Position numbers and translations under genes: made by a program
The notes under the pieces: generated by a model
Databases searched by the model: none
The model's input: the letters and a program-made list of their open reading frames with translations, nothing else
What the model was told of the DNA's origin: nothing
Shown: positions 10,300 to 26,579 of the stretch, one piece after another
Layout of the letters: each line of letters opens with the position of its first letter
How positions within the stretch are numbered: the stretch's first letter is position 1
From: a virus
Taxonomy: Duplodnaviria > Heunggongvirae > Uroviricota > Caudoviricetes
Reading direction: 5' to 3' (one strand)
Length of the DNA stretch: 37,740 bases
IMG/VR virus record: IMGVR_UViG_2778261277_000009
Coordinates: 1 to 37,740 of that record

Positions 10300-11484
10300 T
10301 CAAGCCTTAAGAGGCTTTGTGTATGTTCGTGTAATCCAACCAGTAATAAACTCATCCCCTGATTTAACCTGCACGTAAAGCCATTGACGATCTTTCTTAT
10401 CTAAAATAGCAACAATTGTGTTTTTGCCAATGCATTCAATCACTTCACTATTTAAAGAAGGACTGACATGTAATCTTACGTTATCACCAGTTATAAACCT
10501 AAAACCATTGAGATCTTCCCACTTAATTTCTGTGTTTTCTTTAATTAATTTTTGTTTTGATATTGGTGCATCCTCATATAGGGATACAGAATATGATTCT
10601 GTCTTGTGTATTTGCGATAAGATTTGTTCTTTTGCATAATCAGCAATAGCGCCAAGCACCACTTCTGTTAAAAGCCACATAATAATAAACTGAAGCGGGT
10701 GAGGGAGCGACTTAAATGAATCAATGAACGTCGAACTGGATTTATTTAATCCTTTGTCTTGAACATCACTTTCGTTGTGAGATGTTTCAATAGCACCTTC
10801 GACATAAGCCTGTGCAATTGATGAAAGACTTTGCTCCATTATTTGATGTAATGAAGCCTTTTGCGCTAGGGTATATTGTTTTAATGATTCTTTTATTTCA
10901 TTGTTTAAATCTATCTTATGACTTACATTTTGTCGCAATTCATTAAGTATTGCTTGCATGTTATTTAAACCAGCTTGCTTATTAAGCATCTCGAACTGGT
11001 TTCGTAACGGCATAGCAATTTCTGCCTGCTTCCTTAGCATTTGAATGTATTTATTTGCATCATGCGGGGGATAAACCTTGGCCTGTTTCTGTAGAATTTC
11101 AAGAAATTCACGATGCTTGCTATTTATTCTTCTCAAGCTCGTCATGTTCGCAAGCTGTTTTTTAACAGAATCACTAAGTAACGATTGCAAATTCAATCTT
11201 GCTATTTGTTCTTGAGCTAGCCGCCCTATTCTTAACTGTTCTTGCAAGTTTGCCATATGTTCTCTATACGATGGAATGATTGCGTTTTTTTGCAGTTCTG
11301 CCAACTGTCTAACCAAATTATTAGAAGCATATTCTGATTTTAATAAATCACTTGCCGATGTATATCCTGGCATTTTGATTTTACTTAAATTATCACGCCA
11401 GGTAATATTTGAATCTCTATTATAGAGATCGCTTACTGAGCCAAGTGCAAGTTTTTTAATATCCTTCACTTTATTCACCGTCAT
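10300..11484 (-). CDS. coiled-coil membrane protein with C-terminal SH3b-like domain (function unknown)
   Basis: 394-aa ORF in a low-GC island; long Q/L/K-rich heptad region, one hydrophobic helix (FIIMWLLTEVVLGAIADYA), C-terminal segment ending GDEFITGWITRTYTK that resembles bacterial SH3 domains. Confidence 0.5.
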   Translation of the reverse strand: MTVNKVKDIKKLALGSVSDLYNRDSNITWRDNLSKIKMPGYTSASDLLKSEYASNNLVRQLAELQKNAIIPSYREHMANLQEQLRIGRLAQEQIARLNLQSLLSDSVKKQLANMTSLRRINSKHREFLEILQKQAKVYPPHDANKYIQMLRKQAEIAMPLRNQFEMLNKQAGLNNMQAILNELRQNVSHKIDLNNEIKESLKQYTLAQKASLHQIMEQSLSSIAQAYVEGAIETSHNESDVQDKGLNKSSSTFIDSFKSLPHPLQFIIMWLLTEVVLGAIADYAKEQILSQIHKTESYSVSLYEDAPISKQKLIKENTEIKWEDLNGFRFITGDNVRLHVSPSLNSEVIECIGKNTIVAILDKKDRQWLYVQVKSGDEFITGWITRTYTKPLKA

Positions 11485-11977
11485 CTTGCTTTAAACATCC
11501 ATCATTTTTAGCTTCCTTGTAAATACTTGAAATTCCATCAAGAGAGAATGATGTAATTCGACGCGATCCGATATATACATCCATGTTTTTTTCTTTTGTG
11601 GCTGACGCTGACTTCCAAAAAGAATACCATTCCCTACGATTTGGAGCAGTGTTTTGCGTACCAATATTAAAGCTATCCGGACCAACAATTAAGGTAATTA
11701 CATCAGCTTTACGAGAAATTGTGTCGCGTGTAGAAAAATCAGCATTCTCTTTCCCTCCACTTACATACAAATTTCTTCCAGCTATATGATCTTCGGAACC
11801 TTCCCTTGCTCCAGCATCACAAGAAAAGTTAATTGTATAACCATCGTCATTGGTTGCAGAGATTTCTCTCCACCCTTGCTCACCTCCTACCGTCCAAACG
11901 GTAGAACCTGCCATTGCTGATAATGGCAGAAAAGAGGACATTAATAAAAAGCTATACAATGACTTATATAATTTCAT
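11471..11977 (-). CDS. secreted/periplasmic protein with signal peptide (function unknown)
   Basis: 168-aa ORF; N-terminus MKLYKSLYSFLLMSSFLPLSAMA is a classic signal peptide; AAGGA SD 8 nt upstream; low GC. Confidence 0.5.
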   Translation of the reverse strand: MKLYKSLYSFLLMSSFLPLSAMAGSTVWTVGGEQGWREISATNDDGYTINFSCDAGAREGSEDHIAGRNLYVSGGKENADFSTRDTISRKADVITLIVGPDSFNIGTQNTAPNRREWYSFWKSASATKEKNMDVYIGSRRITSFSLDGISSIYKEAKNDGCLKQDDGE

Positions 11978-12065
11978 ATTTTTATCCTTTTTGTTTTAGA
12001 TATTATAGGCATAGTCCATATTGTTAGATCCACTATGCCCAGAGAATTTAATATTATTCATTAAA

Positions 12066-12557
12066 TTATGGAGCTACACCCGGCCCCCTGGCTCGTTCTT
12101 CAAGCGTACCCTGCACGTTTTGATGGCGCATTCCTGGGGCATTTCTGATTGAGTCAATGCCATTTCTTCCAACATCTTCTTTATTAACGGCATTGCTCGC
12201 CACCAGCACACCCCAGCTAGGGATAGCAAAATCAGGAGCGGTTTCGCATGCCTTTACCATATAATCGAAAGTGCTTCGATTGATCTCATTTGCATCGGGG
12301 TTTAATAGGCGAGAATATTGGTATTTAGCATTTGCGTTGGTTGAGACTTTATACAGTTCCTGCTGCACCATCGCTTCAGAAAGTTTAAGGCGCTTCATAT
12401 CTGACAGTAACTTCTTGCGCATGGATTCGTCTTCACTGACAGCAAATCCGTAAACGTGCCCAAGGTATTTCGTATAATCGGTACAAATCTCCTTTACGCT
12501 TGATGCTGCATTAACAGTCCCAGCCATAAATAATAACGGTAGTAATAGTTTTCTCAT
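12066..12557 (-). CDS. secreted protein with Sit-like C-terminal motif (candidate superinfection-exclusion factor)
   Basis: Start chosen at the ATG with a GGTGAGG SD (MRKLLLPLLFMAGTVNA signal peptide); C-terminal IDSIRNAPGMRHQNVQGTLEERARG matches two motifs near the Sit C-terminus. Confidence 0.5.
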   Translation of the reverse strand: MRKLLLPLLFMAGTVNAASSVKEICTDYTKYLGHVYGFAVSEDESMRKKLLSDMKRLKLSEAMVQQELYKVSTNANAKYQYSRLLNPDANEINRSTFDYMVKACETAPDFAIPSWGVLVASNAVNKEDVGRNGIDSIRNAPGMRHQNVQGTLEERARGPGVAP

Positions 12558-12653
12558 TATAACCTCACCTGCCTTATAACTCATTTAGGGTACATATTTT
12601 CGCCTTTAAAAAAAAGAGGTTATTAGATCCAATTGTGCATTTATTAAACAAAC

Positions 12654-12670
12654 AATGCTCTAATAAATTT
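12654..12670 (+). promoter_or_regulatory. C1 repressor operator (Op51-like) in the divergent region before c4/icd/ant
   Basis: AATGCTCTAATAAATTT, 16/17 match to the P1 C1 operator consensus ATTGCTCTAATAAATTT. Confidence 0.7.
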
Positions 12671-12842
12671 GTATTTTTAAGTCACGAATGCTATCTTTTC
12701 GCATCATATTGACCTTTTAATCGTTCAGGCTTATAGTTCCGCCGTCGTAGCAAATTCTGCGACCAGGTTTGACAGCCTGAATGATTGTGCGGACAACCGC
12801 AGATTTCCGATATTGCGGTATTTTTGTGTCCGTTAAACCGCG

Positions 12843-12945
12843 TTACGCCCAAATTATGGTGGGGCGTGATGGGGAGGCTTCGGCCTGCTGGTTTCACAAT
12901 CGCCAGTCTGTCAACCCTGTCACGTCCTGCCACCTGTTTGACAGC
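12843..12945 (+). ncRNA. c4: c4 antisense repressor RNA region (approximate boundaries)
   Basis: Several hairpins upstream of icd; one loop (UUCACAAUCG, 12890-12899) is complementary to GAUUGUGA at the icd ribosome-binding site (12968-12975). Position matches P1 c4. Confidence 0.4.
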
Positions 12946-12984
12946 GGGTAGCAGGTTGTTAAACCTGATTGTGAGGCCGTAACT

Positions 12985-13206
12985 ATGGTTAATGCCAATC
13001 CTTGCGCACGCCAAGAATTCATCTGGCGTTTCTATTCCTGTAAAAAACACCACTATCACTTCGTTATCGCAGCAACAGAAGACGAAGCACGCTCTCAATT
13101 GCCTGACGGCCCCTGCATTTTTACTGCCCGTTTTTCAACTAACTCGCGCAATTCACTTAGTTACTGGAGCCTCCCCTTCTCTGCCGACGTTCAGGGGGGT
13201 TTATGA
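12985..13206 (+). CDS. icd: Icd-like small protein
   Basis: 73-aa ORF whose stop overlaps the ant ATG (ATGA at 13203-13206); GAGG SD upstream. Confidence 0.55.
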   Translation: MVNANPCARQEFIWRFYSCKKHHYHFVIAATEDEARSQLPDGPCIFTARFSTNSRNSLSYWSLPFSADVQGGL

Positions 13207-16086: not shown

Positions 16087-16349
16087 TAGATTGCTCTAAT
16101 CTGGAGTCACCTGGCATTTTCAGTTTGAGGTCGGAGATGCAATCTGATTTTTACAGTTAGCGATCACTTTTTGCAGGGCATCGTTGAGACATATCCATAT
16201 ATAAAAACCCAAAGCCAGATCAAAACTTGTACTGATAAAAACACAGCTAACCATCACAACTTGTAACGTTTATAATGAGTAAAAGAGTGATACATTGCTA
16301 CTTTTACATATTTTTTGACTTAATTCATGGATAGTAATGGAGATGCATA

Positions 16350-17405
16350 ATGACTTATGCTGGCACACAAACAGCAGATAACGCCGGGGATACCATGAAA
16401 TCGTATGCTATTTGGAATAATAAAGGTGGCGTAGGAAAGACCTACTTATCTTTCGCTATGGCCTGTGAATACGCAAGGCAAAATCCAGAAAAGCGTATTA
16501 TTTTTGCAGATATGTGCCCGCAGGCTAACTTATCTGAAATATTGCTCGGCGGTAACGGTACTGGTGCTGCTAACCTCGCGAGCTTAATTCAACAACGAAA
16601 AACTGTCGGTGGGTACTTTGACAGAAGAACTCGCAGCCCCCACATGCTTACCGGTTCAGAAACAAGTTTCTTAATTCATGTCTCTGAAATTAACGGGCAT
16701 GTCCCTGACAATGTATTTTTGATTGCAGGCGACCCAAGCCTGGAAGTTCAGGCGCAAGTAATCAATCAGTTAAGCAGCGTAAACTTACCAGTTGACTCAT
16801 GGAAAAGCATCCACCTGTGGCTACGAGATTTGCTTGTTGCATGTGCACAACAACAAGGTATCGAAGAAACCATTTGCTTTATTGATTGCAACCCCAGTTT
16901 CTCTGCCTATACCGAACTATCACTGATAGCAGCAAATGCAATTATAATACCTTGCTCAAGTGATGGTTCTTCGGCTCGAGCAGTGGATAACCTAAGCCAG
17001 TTGGTTTATGGCGTTGGAGTACAAAACGATTATCGTTCTGTTAACTTTTACGATCGGTGTCAACAGTTTGGTCTAGCGGTTCCTGTCATTCATTCTCTAG
17101 TTTTTAATCGTTCGACAGAGTATGACAAACGAGCAAGTAAAGCGTTTTCGGCAATGTTCGACGAAATCAGGGATAGAGCTGAAAATCTGCGGACGAATAA
17201 ACCAACAGCGTTCCAAGGCGGAAATTTAAAAACGTTTACTGTGCCAGATAACCATTCCGTAGCTATAGTATCTTCCCATCTAGGAAGACCTCTATTTGAT
17301 ATAAAACCAGGCAGATATCAGATCCATGATACTGAGCCACAAATCAATAATGAACCATTAGAAAGATATGGTGCAGCAATCGAACGTCTTGTTCAGAGTT
17401 TATAG
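16350..17405 (+). CDS. orphan ParA/MinD-family ATPase (deviant Walker A), no partner ParB
   Basis: Walker A NNKGGVGKT, A' IFADMCPQ, Walker B CFIDCNPS; alternative start at 16395 (MKSYAIWNNKGGVGKT) with a GGGGA SD; lower GC than the core. Confidence 0.7.
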   Translation: MTYAGTQTADNAGDTMKSYAIWNNKGGVGKTYLSFAMACEYARQNPEKRIIFADMCPQANLSEILLGGNGTGAANLASLIQQRKTVGGYFDRRTRSPHMLTGSETSFLIHVSEINGHVPDNVFLIAGDPSLEVQAQVINQLSSVNLPVDSWKSIHLWLRDLLVACAQQQGIEETICFIDCNPSFSAYTELSLIAANAIIIPCSSDGSSARAVDNLSQLVYGVGVQNDYRSVNFYDRCQQFGLAVPVIHSLVFNRSTEYDKRASKAFSAMFDEIRDRAENLRTNKPTAFQGGNLKTFTVPDNHSVAIVSSHLGRPLFDIKPGRYQIHDTEPQINNEPLERYGAAIERLVQSL

Positions 17406-17428
17406 TGGCTTATCTCACTCATAATGGC

Positions 17429-17465
17429 TAAAAAAAGGCTGCAACAGAGGTTGCAGCCTTTTTTA
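17429..17465. terminator. bidirectional rho-independent terminator between convergent genes
   Basis: A-run, GGCTGCAAC-agag-GTTGCAGCC, T-run. Confidence 0.75.
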
Positions 17466-17475
17466 TAAAATTACA

Positions 17476-17763
17476 TTAACAGACTGGTAGCGATAGTAAA
17501 TTATTATTCCATCGATTGTCTGCATACGTTCTAATAAACTGCCTTCCACCATTACCAGGATTAACAACCCCAACTTCTACACGATTACCTGCATTATCTG
17601 TTACATAGAATGTATGGAGATTATTATCAATAGCATTAATTACCTGCTCAACAGTCCATTTCCCATTGCTAGTATTAAATTGAGGACTTCCCACATGAGT
17701 AATATGCTCATGGATTGATTGCGAGCCGGAGAGGGTAATGCAAGTAATGCGTACATCAGCCAT
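17476..17763 (-). CDS. small DUF3892-like protein
   Basis: Start chosen at the ATG with an AAGGAAG SD (MADVRITCITLSG...NNLLSLPVC, 95 aa); the N-terminal extension in the ORF track looks spurious. Confidence 0.5.
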   Translation of the reverse strand: MADVRITCITLSGSQSIHEHITHVGSPQFNTSNGKWTVEQVINAIDNNLHTFYVTDNAGNRVEVGVVNPGNGGRQFIRTYADNRWNNNLLSLPVC

Positions 17764-18051
17764 ATATACTTCCTTTATTCTATAGATTATAGGAATTGCG
17801 TTGTCCAAAAAACAAACAACACAATAACAATAAAGAAACATACACACAACAAAAACTAACGCTATTTATTGATAGATTTGCCTGATGAATGCTAGCTCTC
17901 TTTGCTGCCTAGCACTCAAACAAATAACAGAAGAAAGCCCCAGATAACATTACGCGTCCTGCAAGACGCTTAACATTAATCTGAGGCCATATCCATGCTT
18001 AGCATATCTAGATTAACCCTCTCCCCTTTTAAGGAGCAAGGAATTTTACTG

Positions 18052-18648
18052 CTATGCCGCCTTTCCAGTTATGGATTCAGCGACAAGAACAACCCCATGC
18101 TTACTTCGATCTGGGTGTTCACTCCATATCTCAGATTCAGGAATACTTACCCCGTCATAGCAAACACGTTCGCCGTCAAACGGGTAATACTGAGCGGCAT
18201 CGGTGTCGAGGATAAACACTTTTAGCTCGGAAGAGCGACGGGCGATGTGTTGCCAAAGAGCTTTTCCACCTTCGTATTGCTCATTATCACTAAGCAAAAC
18301 AACACCAGCTTTTGAGGCTACGGTTTCGTAAACAAAAGTAGCTAAACCGACATCACGGACGGTTCCATCAACCACGATACCTTCAATCTGGGCAACATCG
18401 CTATCCTCCCAGAACTTCCTTACCAGTACGCCTTCAAGCTGCGGGCGACGTTGAAGTTCAAGAGTAGCGACAACCTTATGGCGCATATCACCATCGATAA
18501 CAGAAGGCGCAGCCTCTATTACAGCTGCAAATGGGGTTTTGGAATCCCATATAACCTGGTAAAGCACACCCTGGATGGTAACTCCGTCCAGGATCGAAAA
18601 TCGACGAGCGACAGTACCCGGGGAGTACGACATTGGAATCACAGCCAT
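18052..18648 (-). CDS. hypothetical protein, 198 aa
   Basis: Start chosen at the second ATG (MAVIPMSYSPG) with an AAAGGGGGA SD; operator-like site 18701-18716 upstream. Confidence 0.5.
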   Translation of the reverse strand: MAVIPMSYSPGTVARRFSILDGVTIQGVLYQVIWDSKTPFAAVIEAAPSVIDGDMRHKVVATLELQRRPQLEGVLVRKFWEDSDVAQIEGIVVDGTVRDVGLATFVYETVASKAGVVLLSDNEQYEGGKALWQHIARRSSELKVFILDTDAAQYYPFDGERVCYDGVSIPESEIWSEHPDRSKHGVVLVAESITGKAA

Positions 18649-18776
18649 TTTAGAGTCCCCCTTTAACAGTACAGGCACAAACATCTACCTCAATAATTGT
18701 AGTTTATTAGAACATTAATAATCTAACATAAAACTCCAGACAATGTTATCGATGCATGTTTATATAAAATAGTTAT

Positions 18777-18798
18777 AAAAAAAGCTCCCGCAGGAGCT
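18777..18798 (-). terminator. rho-independent terminator ending the minus-strand late operon
   Basis: GCTCC-cgca-GGAGC hairpin followed on the minus strand by a 7-T run. Confidence 0.65.
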
Positions 18799-25382: not shown

Positions 25383-26579
25383 TCAGTTAGATCTGATAAA
25401 TTCAATACGGTCAAAAACTGCTTTAGCAAAATCTTCCGCGGCAATTCGCGCGTTCTTCAATGCATCAGCACTACCAACATACGTTGCCGGGTTAGCTGAA
25501 ATAACAGTGTCAAAAGACTCGCCGCAACGTTCAAAACCGTCAAGGCGAGGGAGGACGACATCGAGCATATCCCCACCGAACACTTCTTTAGCCAGGCTAT
25601 GGCAATACTTATGATCTGCCTTGTTACTCAACTTGGACATAAAACCAATGTTAGTCGCAAGCTGGCACTCGCAGCCTTCATCCGAAATGAGTTTCACCAA
25701 CTCAGGAAGGCGGGCAACGTATTTAAGCGATGAGTGGAAATCGACAGTTGCTGGCGGCAGAGGTGTAAACAGTATATTGGCCGAGGCCAAAGCATTTTTC
25801 AGGAAGGCGTCAAGGTGAGGACCACTATCAACGAGGATAAAGTCATAATCGCTCTTCAGCTTATCAATCACATTTTCTTTCAGGACAGCATGGATGTTCT
25901 GACCCGGTAGATGCTCATTGCACAGCTCTCTCCAATCGGATGCAATAAAGGCATCGTCAATCGACGCAGGCATAACGTCAACCCCAGGTACAACAGAAGG
26001 AACAATAAACTCCTCTAACAGCTCTTCACGGCTTACATTCTGCAACATAGCCTGTGCAGATGTTGCGTTTACGATACCAATAGAGTGTTTATGGCTTAAA
26101 AACATCGTTGCTGAAGATTGCGGATCAAGGTCAATAACCAGAATCCTTAAATCTTCCATCAGAAGATGAGGGTGGGCACGCATTGCATGCGCCAGAGAAA
26201 CCGTCGATACAGTTTTTGACACACCGCCTTTAAGATTGGAGATGAAAATCACATACGCTTCGCTGTAGCGATCCCGGTATTTTGGCACTCCGCGATGTTC
26301 ATATATGTCAATGATGTTCTGAATTGACATCGCATATTTCATTGAAGAGCCAGCAGGACGTTTATCGAAAACATAACCCTTTTCTTCCATTTCACTTACG
26401 GCATAGTCAACGTTCGCTCGAGTCAGTAGAGGCAATTTTGCCAGTGCCGCTTTCGCATAGACCTGGTAAAACTCGTTCGCGTGTAGCTCATCCTTTTGCA
26501 ACTGTACTTGTTCAGTCAGAACATTGAGCATTCTGTTTGCTCTTTGAGCAACCTTGTGAAGCTGGCTGGAATCACTCAT
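25383..26579 (-). CDS. parA: partition ATPase ParA (type Ia, with N-terminal DNA-binding extension)
   Basis: 398-aa ORF; Walker A NLKGGVSKT about 100 aa from the N-terminus. Confidence 0.95.
   Translation of the reverse strand: MSDSSQLHKVAQRANRMLNVLTEQVQLQKDELHANEFYQVYAKAALAKLPLLTRANVDYAVSEMEEKGYVFDKRPAGSSMKYAMSIQNIIDIYEHRGVPKYRDRYSEAYVIFISNLKGGVSKTVSTVSLAHAMRAHPHLLMEDLRILVIDLDPQSSATMFLSHKHSIGIVNATSAQAMLQNVSREELLEEFIVPSVVPGVDVMPASIDDAFIASDWRELCNEHLPGQNIHAVLKENVIDKLKSDYDFILVDSGPHLDAFLKNALASANILFTPLPPATVDFHSSLKYVARLPELVKLISDEGCECQLATNIGFMSKLSNKADHKYCHSLAKEVFGGDMLDVVLPRLDGFERCGESFDTVISANPATYVGSADALKNARIAAEDFAKAVFDRIEFIRSN

What the first reader, a model, noticed from the sequence alone, without database searches (positions are those of the whole stretch)
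16350..17405. Orphan ParA/MinD-like ATPase downstream of the kilA-repL lytic replicon, separate from the parAB partition system
A second deviant Walker-A ATPase is encoded with no adjacent ParB-like gene or obvious centromere repeats. It is distinct from the genuine partition ATPase at 25383-26579 (no N-terminal DNA-binding extension, low similarity). It sits in a lower-GC stretch bounded by a bidirectional terminator. Orphan ParA-like proteins positioned after a lytic replication initiator could organise replication or interfere with host or competing plasmid segregation. I could not confirm from memory whether P1 rlfA is this gene.
Basis: partly seen in the sequence, partly recalled or inferred. 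Interest (0 to 1): 0.5.

Follow-up and report, generated by a model that had tools for sequence, protein, structure and literature searches.

The report
Phage-defence ParA-like ATPase in P1 hotspot
The lone ParA-like gene is not a partition or replication gene and is not P1 rlfA: it is a swappable cargo gene of P1-like phage-plasmids, related to GiPD474, a prophage gene recently shown to block other phages, so it is most likely a one-protein antiviral defence.

Summary
ORF 16350-17405 (+) encodes a 351-aa protein with a ParA/MinD fold and a deviant Walker A motif (KGGVGKT). It has no ParB gene and no centromere repeats, and it is almost unrelated to the true P1-type ParA (25383-26579, minus strand).

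It is not rlfA. P1 and P7 carry rlfA (DUF3800), rlfB and pmgF between repL and bplB. Here that segment (16101-18777) is replaced by the ParA-like gene, a bidirectional terminator, a DUF3892 gene and a pmgF-like gene. Only about 8-10% of repL-bearing (P1-like) plasmids carry this allele. P1's own RlfA/RlfB match the PADLOC candidate defence system PDC-M04, so the locus looks like a defence hotspot.

The protein is a full-length homologue (36% identity, E 7e-78) of GiPD474, a single Gifsy-prophage gene shown in 2025 to reduce plating of T4, Alf5 and Felix O1. Relatives sit directly after cI-type repressors in prophages, ride as a passenger gene in an active IS1595-family element, and sit inside an ICE. 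They have no conserved partner gene.

In all 237 members checked, the catalytic Asp of ParA/Soj/MinD is a Cys.

Verdict: a new member (a distinct clade) of a recently described defence family. Defence by this clade, and its mechanism, remain untested.

The parts
16090..16100 (+). Conserved 11-nt core (ATTGCTCTAAT) of the C1 operator Op55/Orlf, directly after the repL stop. It is the last sequence shared with P1 and P7 before the variable segment.
   Evidence: P1 annotation of Orlf. The alignment of window, P1, P7 and MH445380 shows identity up to this core and divergence after it. The full 17-mer consensus is not matched within 3 mismatches.
16101..18777 (.). Variable 'rlf' hotspot between repL and bplB. 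Here it holds the ParA-like, DUF3892 and pmgF-like genes. In P1 and P7 it holds rlfA-rlfB-pmgF. In the commonest allele it holds a small 2-TM ORF and a hok-like toxin ORF.
   Evidence: BLASTN break points against P1, P7 and MH445380. Annotations. Allele counts. Published as variable region 5 of P1-like phage-plasmids (PMC9603915; PMC6906374). P1 RlfA/RlfB match PADLOC PDC-M04A/B.
16101..16177 (+). Remnant of the 5' end of the small membrane-protein ORF of the commonest (hok-type) allele, truncated here by a 1-nt deletion. It is the left scar of the insertion of the ParA-like/DUF3892 module.
   Evidence: About 95% identity to 292 plasmids and 7 P1-like phages over window 16100-16177 only. Alignment. 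ORFs of L001.
16350..17405 (+). ParA/MinD-fold ATPase, 351 aa (family core from Met16 at 16395). It is a GiPD474-family candidate single-gene anti-phage defence protein. Motifs: Walker A K25GGVGK30T, D54-M-C56-PQ (Cys in place of the catalytic Asp), Walker B D179CNPS, PCSSDGSSAR.
17431..17464 (.). Bidirectional intrinsic terminator shared by the convergent ParA-like and DUF3892 genes.
   Evidence: Perfect 15-bp inverted repeat flanked by an A-run and a T-run. Folding dG -22.4 and -21.3 kcal/mol, z -5.8 and -6.4.
17476..17763 (-). DUF3892 gene (95 aa, start MADVRITC...). It arrived together with the ParA-like gene as a 1.75-kb module (16178-17928). It is not a conserved partner of the family.
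   Evidence: Pfam DUF3892 3.9e-15. phrog_8224. RefSeq annotation. Found next to family members only in P1-like elements.
17887..18056 (+). Probable sok-like remnant, the right scar of the hok-type allele. There is no hok ORF here.
   Evidence: Window 17929-18022 is 94.7% identical to L001 6341-6433, just upstream of the hok-like ORF. Sub-threshold Rfam sok hit, 23.7 bits against gathering score 59, E 0.016.
18052..18684 (-). pmgF-like gene (210 aa as the longest ORF; RefSeq aa). Its N-terminal ~65 aa are related to P1/P7 PmgF, followed by a C-terminal extension.
   Evidence: phrog_7522 3.6e-147. tblastn 43-45% identity to P1/P7 pmgF. RefSeq annotation.

Best explanation
The gene is accessory cargo in the repL-bplB variable locus of a P1-like phage-plasmid. 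It encodes a member, in a separate clade, of the GiPD474 family of single-protein anti-phage defence ATPases.

Likely mode of action:
- The protein binds ATP and forms the ATP-sandwich dimer typical of ParA/MinD proteins (signature Lys25, Lys30, Asp54 and Asp179 are all invariant).
- The water-activating Asp of ParA/Soj/MinD is a Cys in every family member, so hydrolysis is probably slow and the ATP dimer long-lived.
- That dimer, through family-specific insertions (about residues 60-120 and 260-351), engages a phage-derived or universal target after DNA entry. The target is most plausibly DNA or a DNA-handling phage complex. This stops development of certain lytic phages and so protects the cell that carries the plasmid prophage.

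Shown here: homology, fold, motif conservation, the cargo and hotspot position, the immunity-region context of relatives, and the lack of a partner gene.

Shown by others, for a 36%-identical homologue only: the anti-phage phenotype.

Inferred: defence by this clade, slow hydrolysis, the nature of the target, and expression in the lysogen.
For: Homology to GiPD474:
- 36% identity over 342 of 351 residues, collinear, E 7e-78, to the GiPD474-type protein P0138.
- P0409 differs from P0138 by one residue. It is 361 aa, has GGVGKT at residues 29-34 as published, and is encoded in the Gifsy-3 immunity region of S. Typhimurium 14028S (CP001363.1, about 1.29 Mb), as the paper states (PMC12724215).
- GiPD474 alone gives about 5-log protection against T4 and Alf5, and also restricts Felix O1, in Salmonella and E. 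coli (PMC12724215).

Context:
- In 49 non-redundant non-P1 viral contigs, the gene immediately upstream is HTH_3 in 35 and Peptidase_S24 in 29, that is, a cI-type repressor.
- The same holds for phi297 (71% identity), a Serratia prophage (85%), Klebsiella phage ST11-VIM1phi8.2 and E. coli prophages.

Hotspot:
- P1's alternative cargo RlfA/RlfB matches the PADLOC candidate defence system PDC-M04A/B (1e-95 and 1e-51).
- The commonest allele has a hok-like toxin ORF.
- Of 516 repL plasmids, about 40-52 carry this allele and 101 carry rlfAB.

Mobility without a partner gene:
- No conserved neighbour in 80 genome loci.
- Passenger gene of an active 2272-bp IS1595-family element, with 3 copies, 23-nt inverted repeats and 8-bp target duplications.
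- Inserted in an E. coli LF82 ICE.
- Roughly one in ten immediate neighbours hits a PADLOC defence model, including ShosA, NsnA, PD-T4-2 and R-M genes.

Motifs and integrity:
- Walker A in 236/237 members, DxCPQxN in 237/237, DCNPS in 236/237.
- Cys56 aligns to the Asp of P1 ParA, 3pg5 and Soj.
- The gene is intact and at least 99% identical in 31 of the 39 E. coli genomes that carry it (95-99% in the other 8). 38 of the 39 copies are full length, and all are on plasmids.
Against: - No experiment exists for this clade. 36% identity does not guarantee the same phenotype or specificity.
- There is no PADLOC (2023) hit for this protein or for GiPD474.
- In the window the gene is not next to a cI-type repressor. 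It lies downstream of the lytic replicon, just after the core of a C1 operator, and no sigma-70 consensus promoter was found in the 263-nt upstream spacer. Expression in the lysogen is therefore unproven.
- The family is unusually conserved for an immune sensor: 55-60% identity across phyla and into archaea. Many copies sit between housekeeping genes. This would also fit a cellular, non-immune role.
- The neighbour census had no matched control.
- The DNA-target and slow-hydrolysis ideas rest on analogy with Soj/MinD Asp mutants (established knowledge), not on data for this family.
Confidence: 0.62

Rival explanations
1. Orphan positioning or partition ATPase. On this view it organises P1 lytic replication, helps plasmid segregation without a ParB, or disturbs segregation of competing plasmids.
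Against: - The element already has P1-type parAB, and there are no centromere-like repeats.
- About 90% of P1-like plasmids lack the gene.
- Relatives occur in integrated prophages, an IS element, an ICE and chromosomes, where there is nothing to partition and no repL.
- The catalytic Asp needed for the ParA ATPase cycle is replaced by Cys in all members.
Confidence: 0.07
2. A selfish or host-manipulating moron. It could be an addiction-type gene, or one that alters host cell division, motility or the envelope for the benefit of the mobile element. Any phage resistance would be a side effect.
For: It sits in a locus that also holds hok-like toxins in other alleles. It spreads alone on IS elements. 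MinD/FlhG-type relatives control division and flagella (one search hit list).
Against: There is no partner antitoxin-like gene anywhere. There is no MinD-like basic amphipathic C-terminus; the C-terminal helix EPLERYGAAIERLVQSL is acidic. GiPD474 works in heterologous hosts and is phage-specific, not a general envelope effect (PMC12724215).
Confidence: 0.1
3. A conserved cellular ATPase with a non-immune function shared by bacteria and archaea, for example handling a universal substrate. Mobile elements would occasionally capture it, and the GiPD474 phenotype would be clade-specific.
For: Very high conservation across phyla and domains (mean column identity 66% in A1). Many copies lie singly among housekeeping genes. 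Only 97 clusters at 50% identity reach E 1e-30.
Against: Contexts are not syntenic even within one order, for example five Bdellovibrionales loci. Distribution is patchy: 345 confirmed matches from a scan of one genome for each of 185,579 species, and 39 of 5426 E. coli genomes, all on plasmids. Both clades occupy the same immunity-region slot in prophages. The gene is an active IS passenger.
Confidence: 0.12

Closest known systems
GiPD474 (STM474_RS13505, WP_000368620.1), the Gifsy-1(4/74)/Gifsy-3(14028S) prophage defence protein; Bosma, Noireaux & Bowden, Appl Environ Microbiol 2025 (PMC12724215)
   Same: Single-domain ParA/MinD-fold protein of about 350-360 aa with the same collinear architecture, including the family-specific insertions (36% identity over 342 aa, E 7e-78). 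The same motifs are present: NKGGVGKT, DxCPQxN, DCNPSF, PC..D..S.R, NRS. It is a single gene without a partner and is temperate-phage cargo. Same-clade relatives of the window protein occupy the identical slot after cI.
   Different: It belongs to a different clade, well below the >=70% identity cut-off the authors used for 'homologs'. Here it sits in a P1-like phage-plasmid at the rlf hotspot, not in a lambdoid immunity region. It is accompanied by a DUF3892 gene. Its phenotype is untested. The mechanism of GiPD474 itself is unknown.
Chromosome/plasmid partition ParA/Soj and McdA (e.g. PDB 8ray, 6noo, 7npd)
P1 RlfA/RlfB (= P7 RapA/RapB), PADLOC candidate system PDC-M04
   Same: It occupies exactly the same locus, between the Op55 operator core after repL and pmgF/bplB. 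It is likewise low-GC accessory cargo and a candidate defence function.
   Different: The proteins are unrelated: RlfA is a DUF3800 protein, and the system has two genes.
Other immunity-region prophage defences (lambda RexAB, BstA, remAIN, 933W Stk)
   Same: Same genomic logic in lambdoid relatives: a gene placed directly after the repressor that protects the lysogen.
   Different: No sequence or fold relationship. BstA and RexAB act by abortive infection, whereas the mode of action here is unknown.

Membership tests
GiPD474-type single-gene defence ATPases | Full-length sequence homology to GiPD474 | tested here: met
   BLASTP 36% identity, 59% positives over 342 aa, E 7e-78. The identity of the reference sequence was checked by length, motif position and Gifsy-3 location.
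GiPD474-type single-gene defence ATPases | ParA/MinD fold with a GGVGKT P-loop and AAA_31 domain, plus a further region not matched by Pfam | tested here: met
GiPD474-type single-gene defence ATPases | Acts as a single gene: no conserved partner gene | tested here: met
   Clustering of neighbours in 80 genome loci and 80 viral loci finds no recurrent partner. DUF3892 accompanies it only in P1-like elements.
GiPD474-type single-gene defence ATPases | At least 70% identity to GiPD474 (the cut-off the authors used to list homologues) | tested here: not met
   36% identity. The window protein is in a sister clade (DMCPQAN / PCSSDGSSAR versus DACPQSN / PCTADAASIR).
GiPD474-type single-gene defence ATPases | Carried in a temperate-phage immunity or accessory locus | tested here: met
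   The window copy is in the variable rlf hotspot of a P1-like phage-plasmid. Same-clade copies lie after cI in phi297 and in Serratia and other prophages.
GiPD474-type single-gene defence ATPases | Reduces plating of specific phages when expressed alone | not testable with these tools
   Only GiPD474 itself has been tested (PMC12724215).
Partition ParA (type Ia/Ib) / Soj | Deviant Walker A with signature lysine, and the ParA fold | tested here: met
Partition ParA (type Ia/Ib) / Soj | Cognate ParB/adaptor gene and centromere repeats next to it | tested here: not met
   Neighbours are repL, DUF3892 and a pmgF-like gene. No repeat arrays. No conserved neighbour family-wide.
Partition ParA (type Ia/Ib) / Soj | Water-activating Asp in switch I (DxDPQ; Soj D40, MinD D40) | tested here: not met
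   Cys56 aligns with that Asp in P1 ParA, 3pg5 and Soj. It is Cys in 237/237 family members. The role of the Asp is established knowledge from Soj/MinD/ParA mutants.
Partition ParA (type Ia/Ib) / Soj | N-terminal HTH/DNA-binding extension (type Ia, as in P1 ParA) | tested here: not met
   There are only 15 disordered residues before the core (pLDDT < 50). The family core starts at Met16.
P1 RlfA/RlfB (PDC-M04) | Sequence similarity to RlfA (DUF3800) or RlfB | tested here: not met
   P1 and P7 annotation and coordinates. No DNA similarity between 16101 and 18777. Different Pfam/PADLOC families.

The most novel reading that the evidence does not exclude
This is one branch of a family of ParA-like ATPases found in both bacteria and archaea. 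In this family the catalytic Asp has been traded for Cys, turning a positioning motor into a long-lived ATP-locked clamp that acts on its own as antiviral immunity, for instance by seizing incoming or replicating phage DNA or a DNA-handling complex. The gene spreads as a naked single-gene cassette: as an IS1595 passenger, as a post-cI moron in prophages, as an ICE insert, and in the P1 rlf hotspot. That would be a new effector logic for bacterial immunity, with no nuclease, NADase, pore or signalling module.
Probability: 0.22. Interest if true: 0.75.

Novelty: new member of a known kind. Interest (0 to 1): 0.45.

Why it matters
If the defence reading holds, five things follow.
- The long-unexplained "replication-linked function" locus of P1 is reinterpreted as a swappable defence or addiction hotspot. 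Its alleles are PDC-M04 (rlfAB), a hok-like toxin, or the ParA-like gene.
- The GiPD474 family extends from Enterobacteriaceae prophages to a very large family spanning bacteria and archaea.
- A defence gene is shown travelling as the passenger of an active insertion sequence.
- The invariant Asp-to-Cys change gives a concrete mechanistic handle for a defence protein whose mode of action is unknown.
- P1-like phage-plasmids are common carriers of resistance genes in clinical E. coli. A cargo gene that changes the phage sensitivity of their hosts is therefore relevant to phage therapy and typing.

Tried and rejected
- rlfA identity: rejected. P1 and P7 rlfA/rapA is a 234-aa DUF3800 protein, and there is no similarity.
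- Known defence models: PADLOC 2.0 gave no hit for the ParA-like protein, DUF3892, the pmgF-like protein or GiPD474. NCBIfam gave only far-sub-threshold ParA, BcsQ and RepA hits at the P-loop.
- Conserved partner or operon: neighbour clustering and Pfam censuses found none. DUF3892 is not linked outside P1-like elements.
- Domain fusions as functional hints: longer family members are mis-called starts. Distant 450-600-aa relatives show no extra Pfam domain.
- A conserved upstream promoter or RNA travelling with the gene: no DNA similarity upstream of about codon 11 between the window, the Serratia prophage and phi297 copies. No sigma-70 consensus hit upstream. No Rfam family above threshold.
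- Centromere-like repeats: none.
- Terminal inverted repeats around the other IS1595-linked copies (L026-L051): not clearly resolved in GC-rich sequence. Only the Vicinamibacterales element is clean.
- Profile alignment to Soj beyond residue 223, to test the Soj DNA-binding arginines: the alignment did not extend that far, so DNA binding stays untested.
- Literature: only one paper mentions GiPD474. Searches for ParA-like defence genes and IS1595 passenger genes gave nothing more specific.

Full report
**1. What is in the window**

The window is a P1-like (IncY) phage-plasmid. It carries icd-ant, kilA, repL, tail genes, and parB-parA-repA further on.

The genuine partition ATPase is at 25383-26579 on the minus strand, next to parB. 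It shares only the P-loop with this protein (28 bits, E 3e-4).

No ParB-like gene and no repeat array lie near the ORF. The gene ends at a perfect 15-bp bidirectional terminator (17431-17464; dG about -22 kcal/mol, z about -6). GC is 42.6% for the ORF and 39.5% for 16178-17928, against 46.6% for the window.

**2. It is not rlfA; it is one allele of a hotspot**

In P1 and P7 the interval between repL and bplB holds rlfA (DUF3800, 234 aa), rlfB and pmgF. The window is colinear with P1 and P7 up to 16100, which is the 11-nt core of the C1 operator Op55 right after repL. It is colinear again from 18778.

In between lie:
- the ParA-like gene;
- the terminator;
- a convergent DUF3892 gene (17476-17763);
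- a pmgF-like gene (18052-18684; its N-terminal 65 aa are 43-45% identical to PmgF).

Allele counts among 516 PLSDB plasmids with repL:
- 52 match the ParA/DUF3892 stretch at 95% identity or more, 40 of them over at least 80% of it.
- 101 carry rlfAB.
- About 292 share only the 78-bp left junction of a third allele.

That commonest allele (for example MH445380) encodes a small 2-TM protein and a hok-like 51-aa ORF. The window keeps two scars of it. One is the first 77 bp (16101-16177). The other is a 94-bp sok-like stretch (17929-18022), which gives a sub-threshold Rfam sok hit. So the ParA-like gene plus DUF3892 look like a 1.75-kb module dropped into a hok-type allele.

None of the 21 P1-type records in the phage collection has the module. 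In complete E. coli genomes it occurs in 39 of 5426, always on plasmids. 38 copies are full length, and 31 are at least 99% identical.

The literature already lists rlfA-rlfB-pmgF as one of eight variable regions of P1-like phage-plasmids. It also notes '3 orfs ... substitute rlfA-rlfB-pmgF' in pTZ20_1P (PMC9603915; PMC6906374).

P1's own RlfA and RlfB match the PADLOC candidate defence system PDC-M04 (1e-95 and 1e-51). The locus thus alternates between candidate defence or addiction cargoes.

**3. The family and its contexts**

The protein has thousands of relatives of a fixed length, about 335 aa. They are 55-60% identical across Proteobacteria, Acidobacteriota, Planctomycetota, Chloroflexota, Cyanobacteria, Bdellovibrionales and Patescibacteria, and they also occur in archaeal MAGs. 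Longer entries are mis-called starts.

In 80 genome loci there is no conserved neighbour. Most copies sit alone between unrelated genes.

The recurrent neighbours are mobile-element genes: IS1595-family transposases (7 non-redundant loci), IS1-type transposases (4) and cI-type repressors.

In a Vicinamibacterales genome, three copies 99.96-100% identical define a 2272-bp element. It has 23-nt terminal inverted repeats and 8-bp target duplications (ATCGGAAA, CAAATGAT, ATATATAA). It contains the transposase and the ParA-like gene. This is an active IS with this gene as passenger.

In E. coli LF82 a 353-aa member is inserted on the opposite strand inside the conjugation genes of an ICE.

In viruses the pattern is sharp. 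The gene follows the cI repressor on the same strand in phi297 (71% identity), a Serratia prophage (85%), Klebsiella phage ST11-VIM1phi8.2, Salmonella phage S.Inf 5-2 and E. coli prophages. Among 49 non-redundant non-P1 IMG/VR contigs, the upstream gene is HTH_3 in 35 and Peptidase_S24 in 29.

Roughly one in ten immediate neighbours in genomes hits a PADLOC model, including ShosA, NsnA, PD-T4-2, PDC-S01 and type I/II/III R-M. This is suggestive, but it had no control.

**4. Link to an experimentally characterised gene**

A 2025 paper (PMC12724215) identified gipd474. It is a single gene in the immunity region of Gifsy-1 of S. Typhimurium 4/74 and of Gifsy-3 of 14028S. It encodes a 361-aa ParA/MinD-like protein with GGVGKT at residues 29-34. 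Expressed alone, it lowers plating of T4 and Alf5 by about 5 logs and restricts Felix O1. T7, SP6, S16 and others are unaffected. It is highly expressed in the lysogen. Its mechanism is unknown.

I recovered that protein as P0409, 361 aa with the motif at 29-34. It is encoded between the cI-like repressor and recE in CP001363.1 at about 1.29 Mb, inside the published Gifsy-3 coordinates.

The window protein aligns to it end to end: 36% identity, 59% positives, 11 gaps, E 7e-78. The two are therefore sister clades of one family with one architecture. Both clades occupy the same post-cI slot. The authors surveyed only homologues at 70% identity or more in Enterobacteriaceae, so the window clade, its P1 location, and the IS, ICE and archaeal copies are outside what they described.

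An older paper read the phi297 copy as a partition gene lacking parB (PMC3564109).

**5. Mechanistic clues**

Invariant residues include Lys25, Lys30, Asp54 and Asp179, so ATP binding and sandwich dimerisation are expected.

Partition ParAs, Soj and MinD carry the water-activating Asp in the motif DxDPQ. Mutating it gives ATP-locked dimers (established knowledge for Soj D40, MinD D40 and Caulobacter ParA D44). At that position every one of 237 members of both clades has Cys (DxCPQxN). The alignments are to P1 ParA, 3pg5 and Soj. PDB entry 8ray ('ParA in complex with ATP') has Ala at the aligned position; this may be an engineered hydrolysis mutant, which I did not verify.

The C-terminal helix is acidic, unlike the MinD membrane anchor. 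There is no effector domain and no informative fusion.

My best reading is a slow-hydrolysing ATP dimer. Its family-specific surfaces would bind a phage-derived or universal target, with DNA or a DNA-handling complex most plausible, and block infection after entry. This step is inference.

**6. What remains uncertain**

- Defence by this clade is untested.
- Expression in the P1-like lysogen is unknown. There was no consensus promoter hit in 16087-16349, and only the core of Op55 is retained.
- The start codon, 16350 or 16395, is open.
- The role of DUF3892 is unknown.
- It is unknown how a P1-type myovirus tolerates the gene.
- The high conservation and the many 'housekeeping' neighbourhoods leave room for a non-immune cellular role.

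**7. Verdict**

The finding is real and the gene is not an ordinary P1 core gene. However, it belongs to a family whose defence function was published in 2025. It is a new member (a distinct clade, in a new genomic setting) of a known kind. Interest is moderate. The points worth follow-up are the hotspot reinterpretation, the IS-passenger observation and the universal Asp-to-Cys change.

Noticed in passing
L078/L079/L080 7883-10154 (Vicinamibacterales MAG OZ250139.1): A 2272-bp IS1595-family element is present in three copies at 99.96-100% identity. It has 23-nt terminal inverted repeats and 8-bp target-site duplications. It carries the ParA-like gene as its only passenger, next to the transposase.
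   Followed up: yes
L003 3741-4909 (P1 rlfA-rlfB, NC_005856 51740-52908): P1 RlfA and RlfB, long annotated as 'possibly associated with lytic replication', match the PADLOC candidate defence system PDC-M04A/B at 1e-95 and 1e-51.
   Followed up: partly
L001 6465-6620 and window 17887-18056: The commonest allele of the repL-bplB locus encodes a hok-like 51-aa toxin ORF (MKQQKAMLIALIVICLTVIVTALVTRKDLCEVRIRTGQTEVTVFTAYESER). The window keeps a 94-bp piece upstream of it (17929-18022) with a sub-threshold Rfam sok hit, but no hok ORF.
   Followed up: partly
window 16133-16156 and L001 6034-6283: A GGAG-ATG start opens a small 2-TM protein ORF in the commonest allele. In the window a 1-nt deletion cuts it to 7 codons (MQSDFYS*). 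This is a scar showing that the ParA-like/DUF3892 module replaced an older cargo.
   Followed up: partly
window 16515-16517 (Cys56 codon); family-wide: The switch-I Asp that activates the hydrolytic water in ParA/Soj/MinD is Cys in all 237 full-length members of both clades (DxCPQxN).
   Followed up: partly
L101 6512-7573 (E. coli LF82 chromosome, NC_011993.1 4475708-4476769): A 353-aa family member (WP_000029699.1) sits on the opposite strand in the middle of the conjugation gene cluster of a PFGI-1/ICEclc-type ICE.
   Followed up: no
window 18052-18684 (-): The gene next to bplB is a pmgF relative. Its N-terminal 65 aa are 43-45% identical to P1/P7 PmgF, and it has a C-terminal extension of about 110 aa (phrog_7522), so pmgF itself is variable at this locus.
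   Followed up: partly
L026, L029, L040, L051 (alphaproteobacterial loci): A 142-150-aa protein without a Pfam hit recurs next to the ParA-like gene in the loci that also hold an IS1595-family transposase. Three downstream neighbours hit the PADLOC model mad2 (E 1.6e-21); I did not confirm that these are this protein. It is possibly a second passenger gene.
   Followed up: no
L095-L100, about 11286-13086 (E. coli prophage end): In the E. coli prophages that carry the GiPD474-clade gene after cI, a 1275-aa SIR2_2-domain protein lies about 4 kb further on. This may be another defence gene in the same prophage arm.
   Followed up: no
window 12654, 14325, 30510, 33786, 33797: Five matches to the 17-nt P1 C1 operator consensus with 0-2 mismatches (0.2 expected by chance). 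The site after repL (16090) keeps only the 11-nt core.
   Followed up: no
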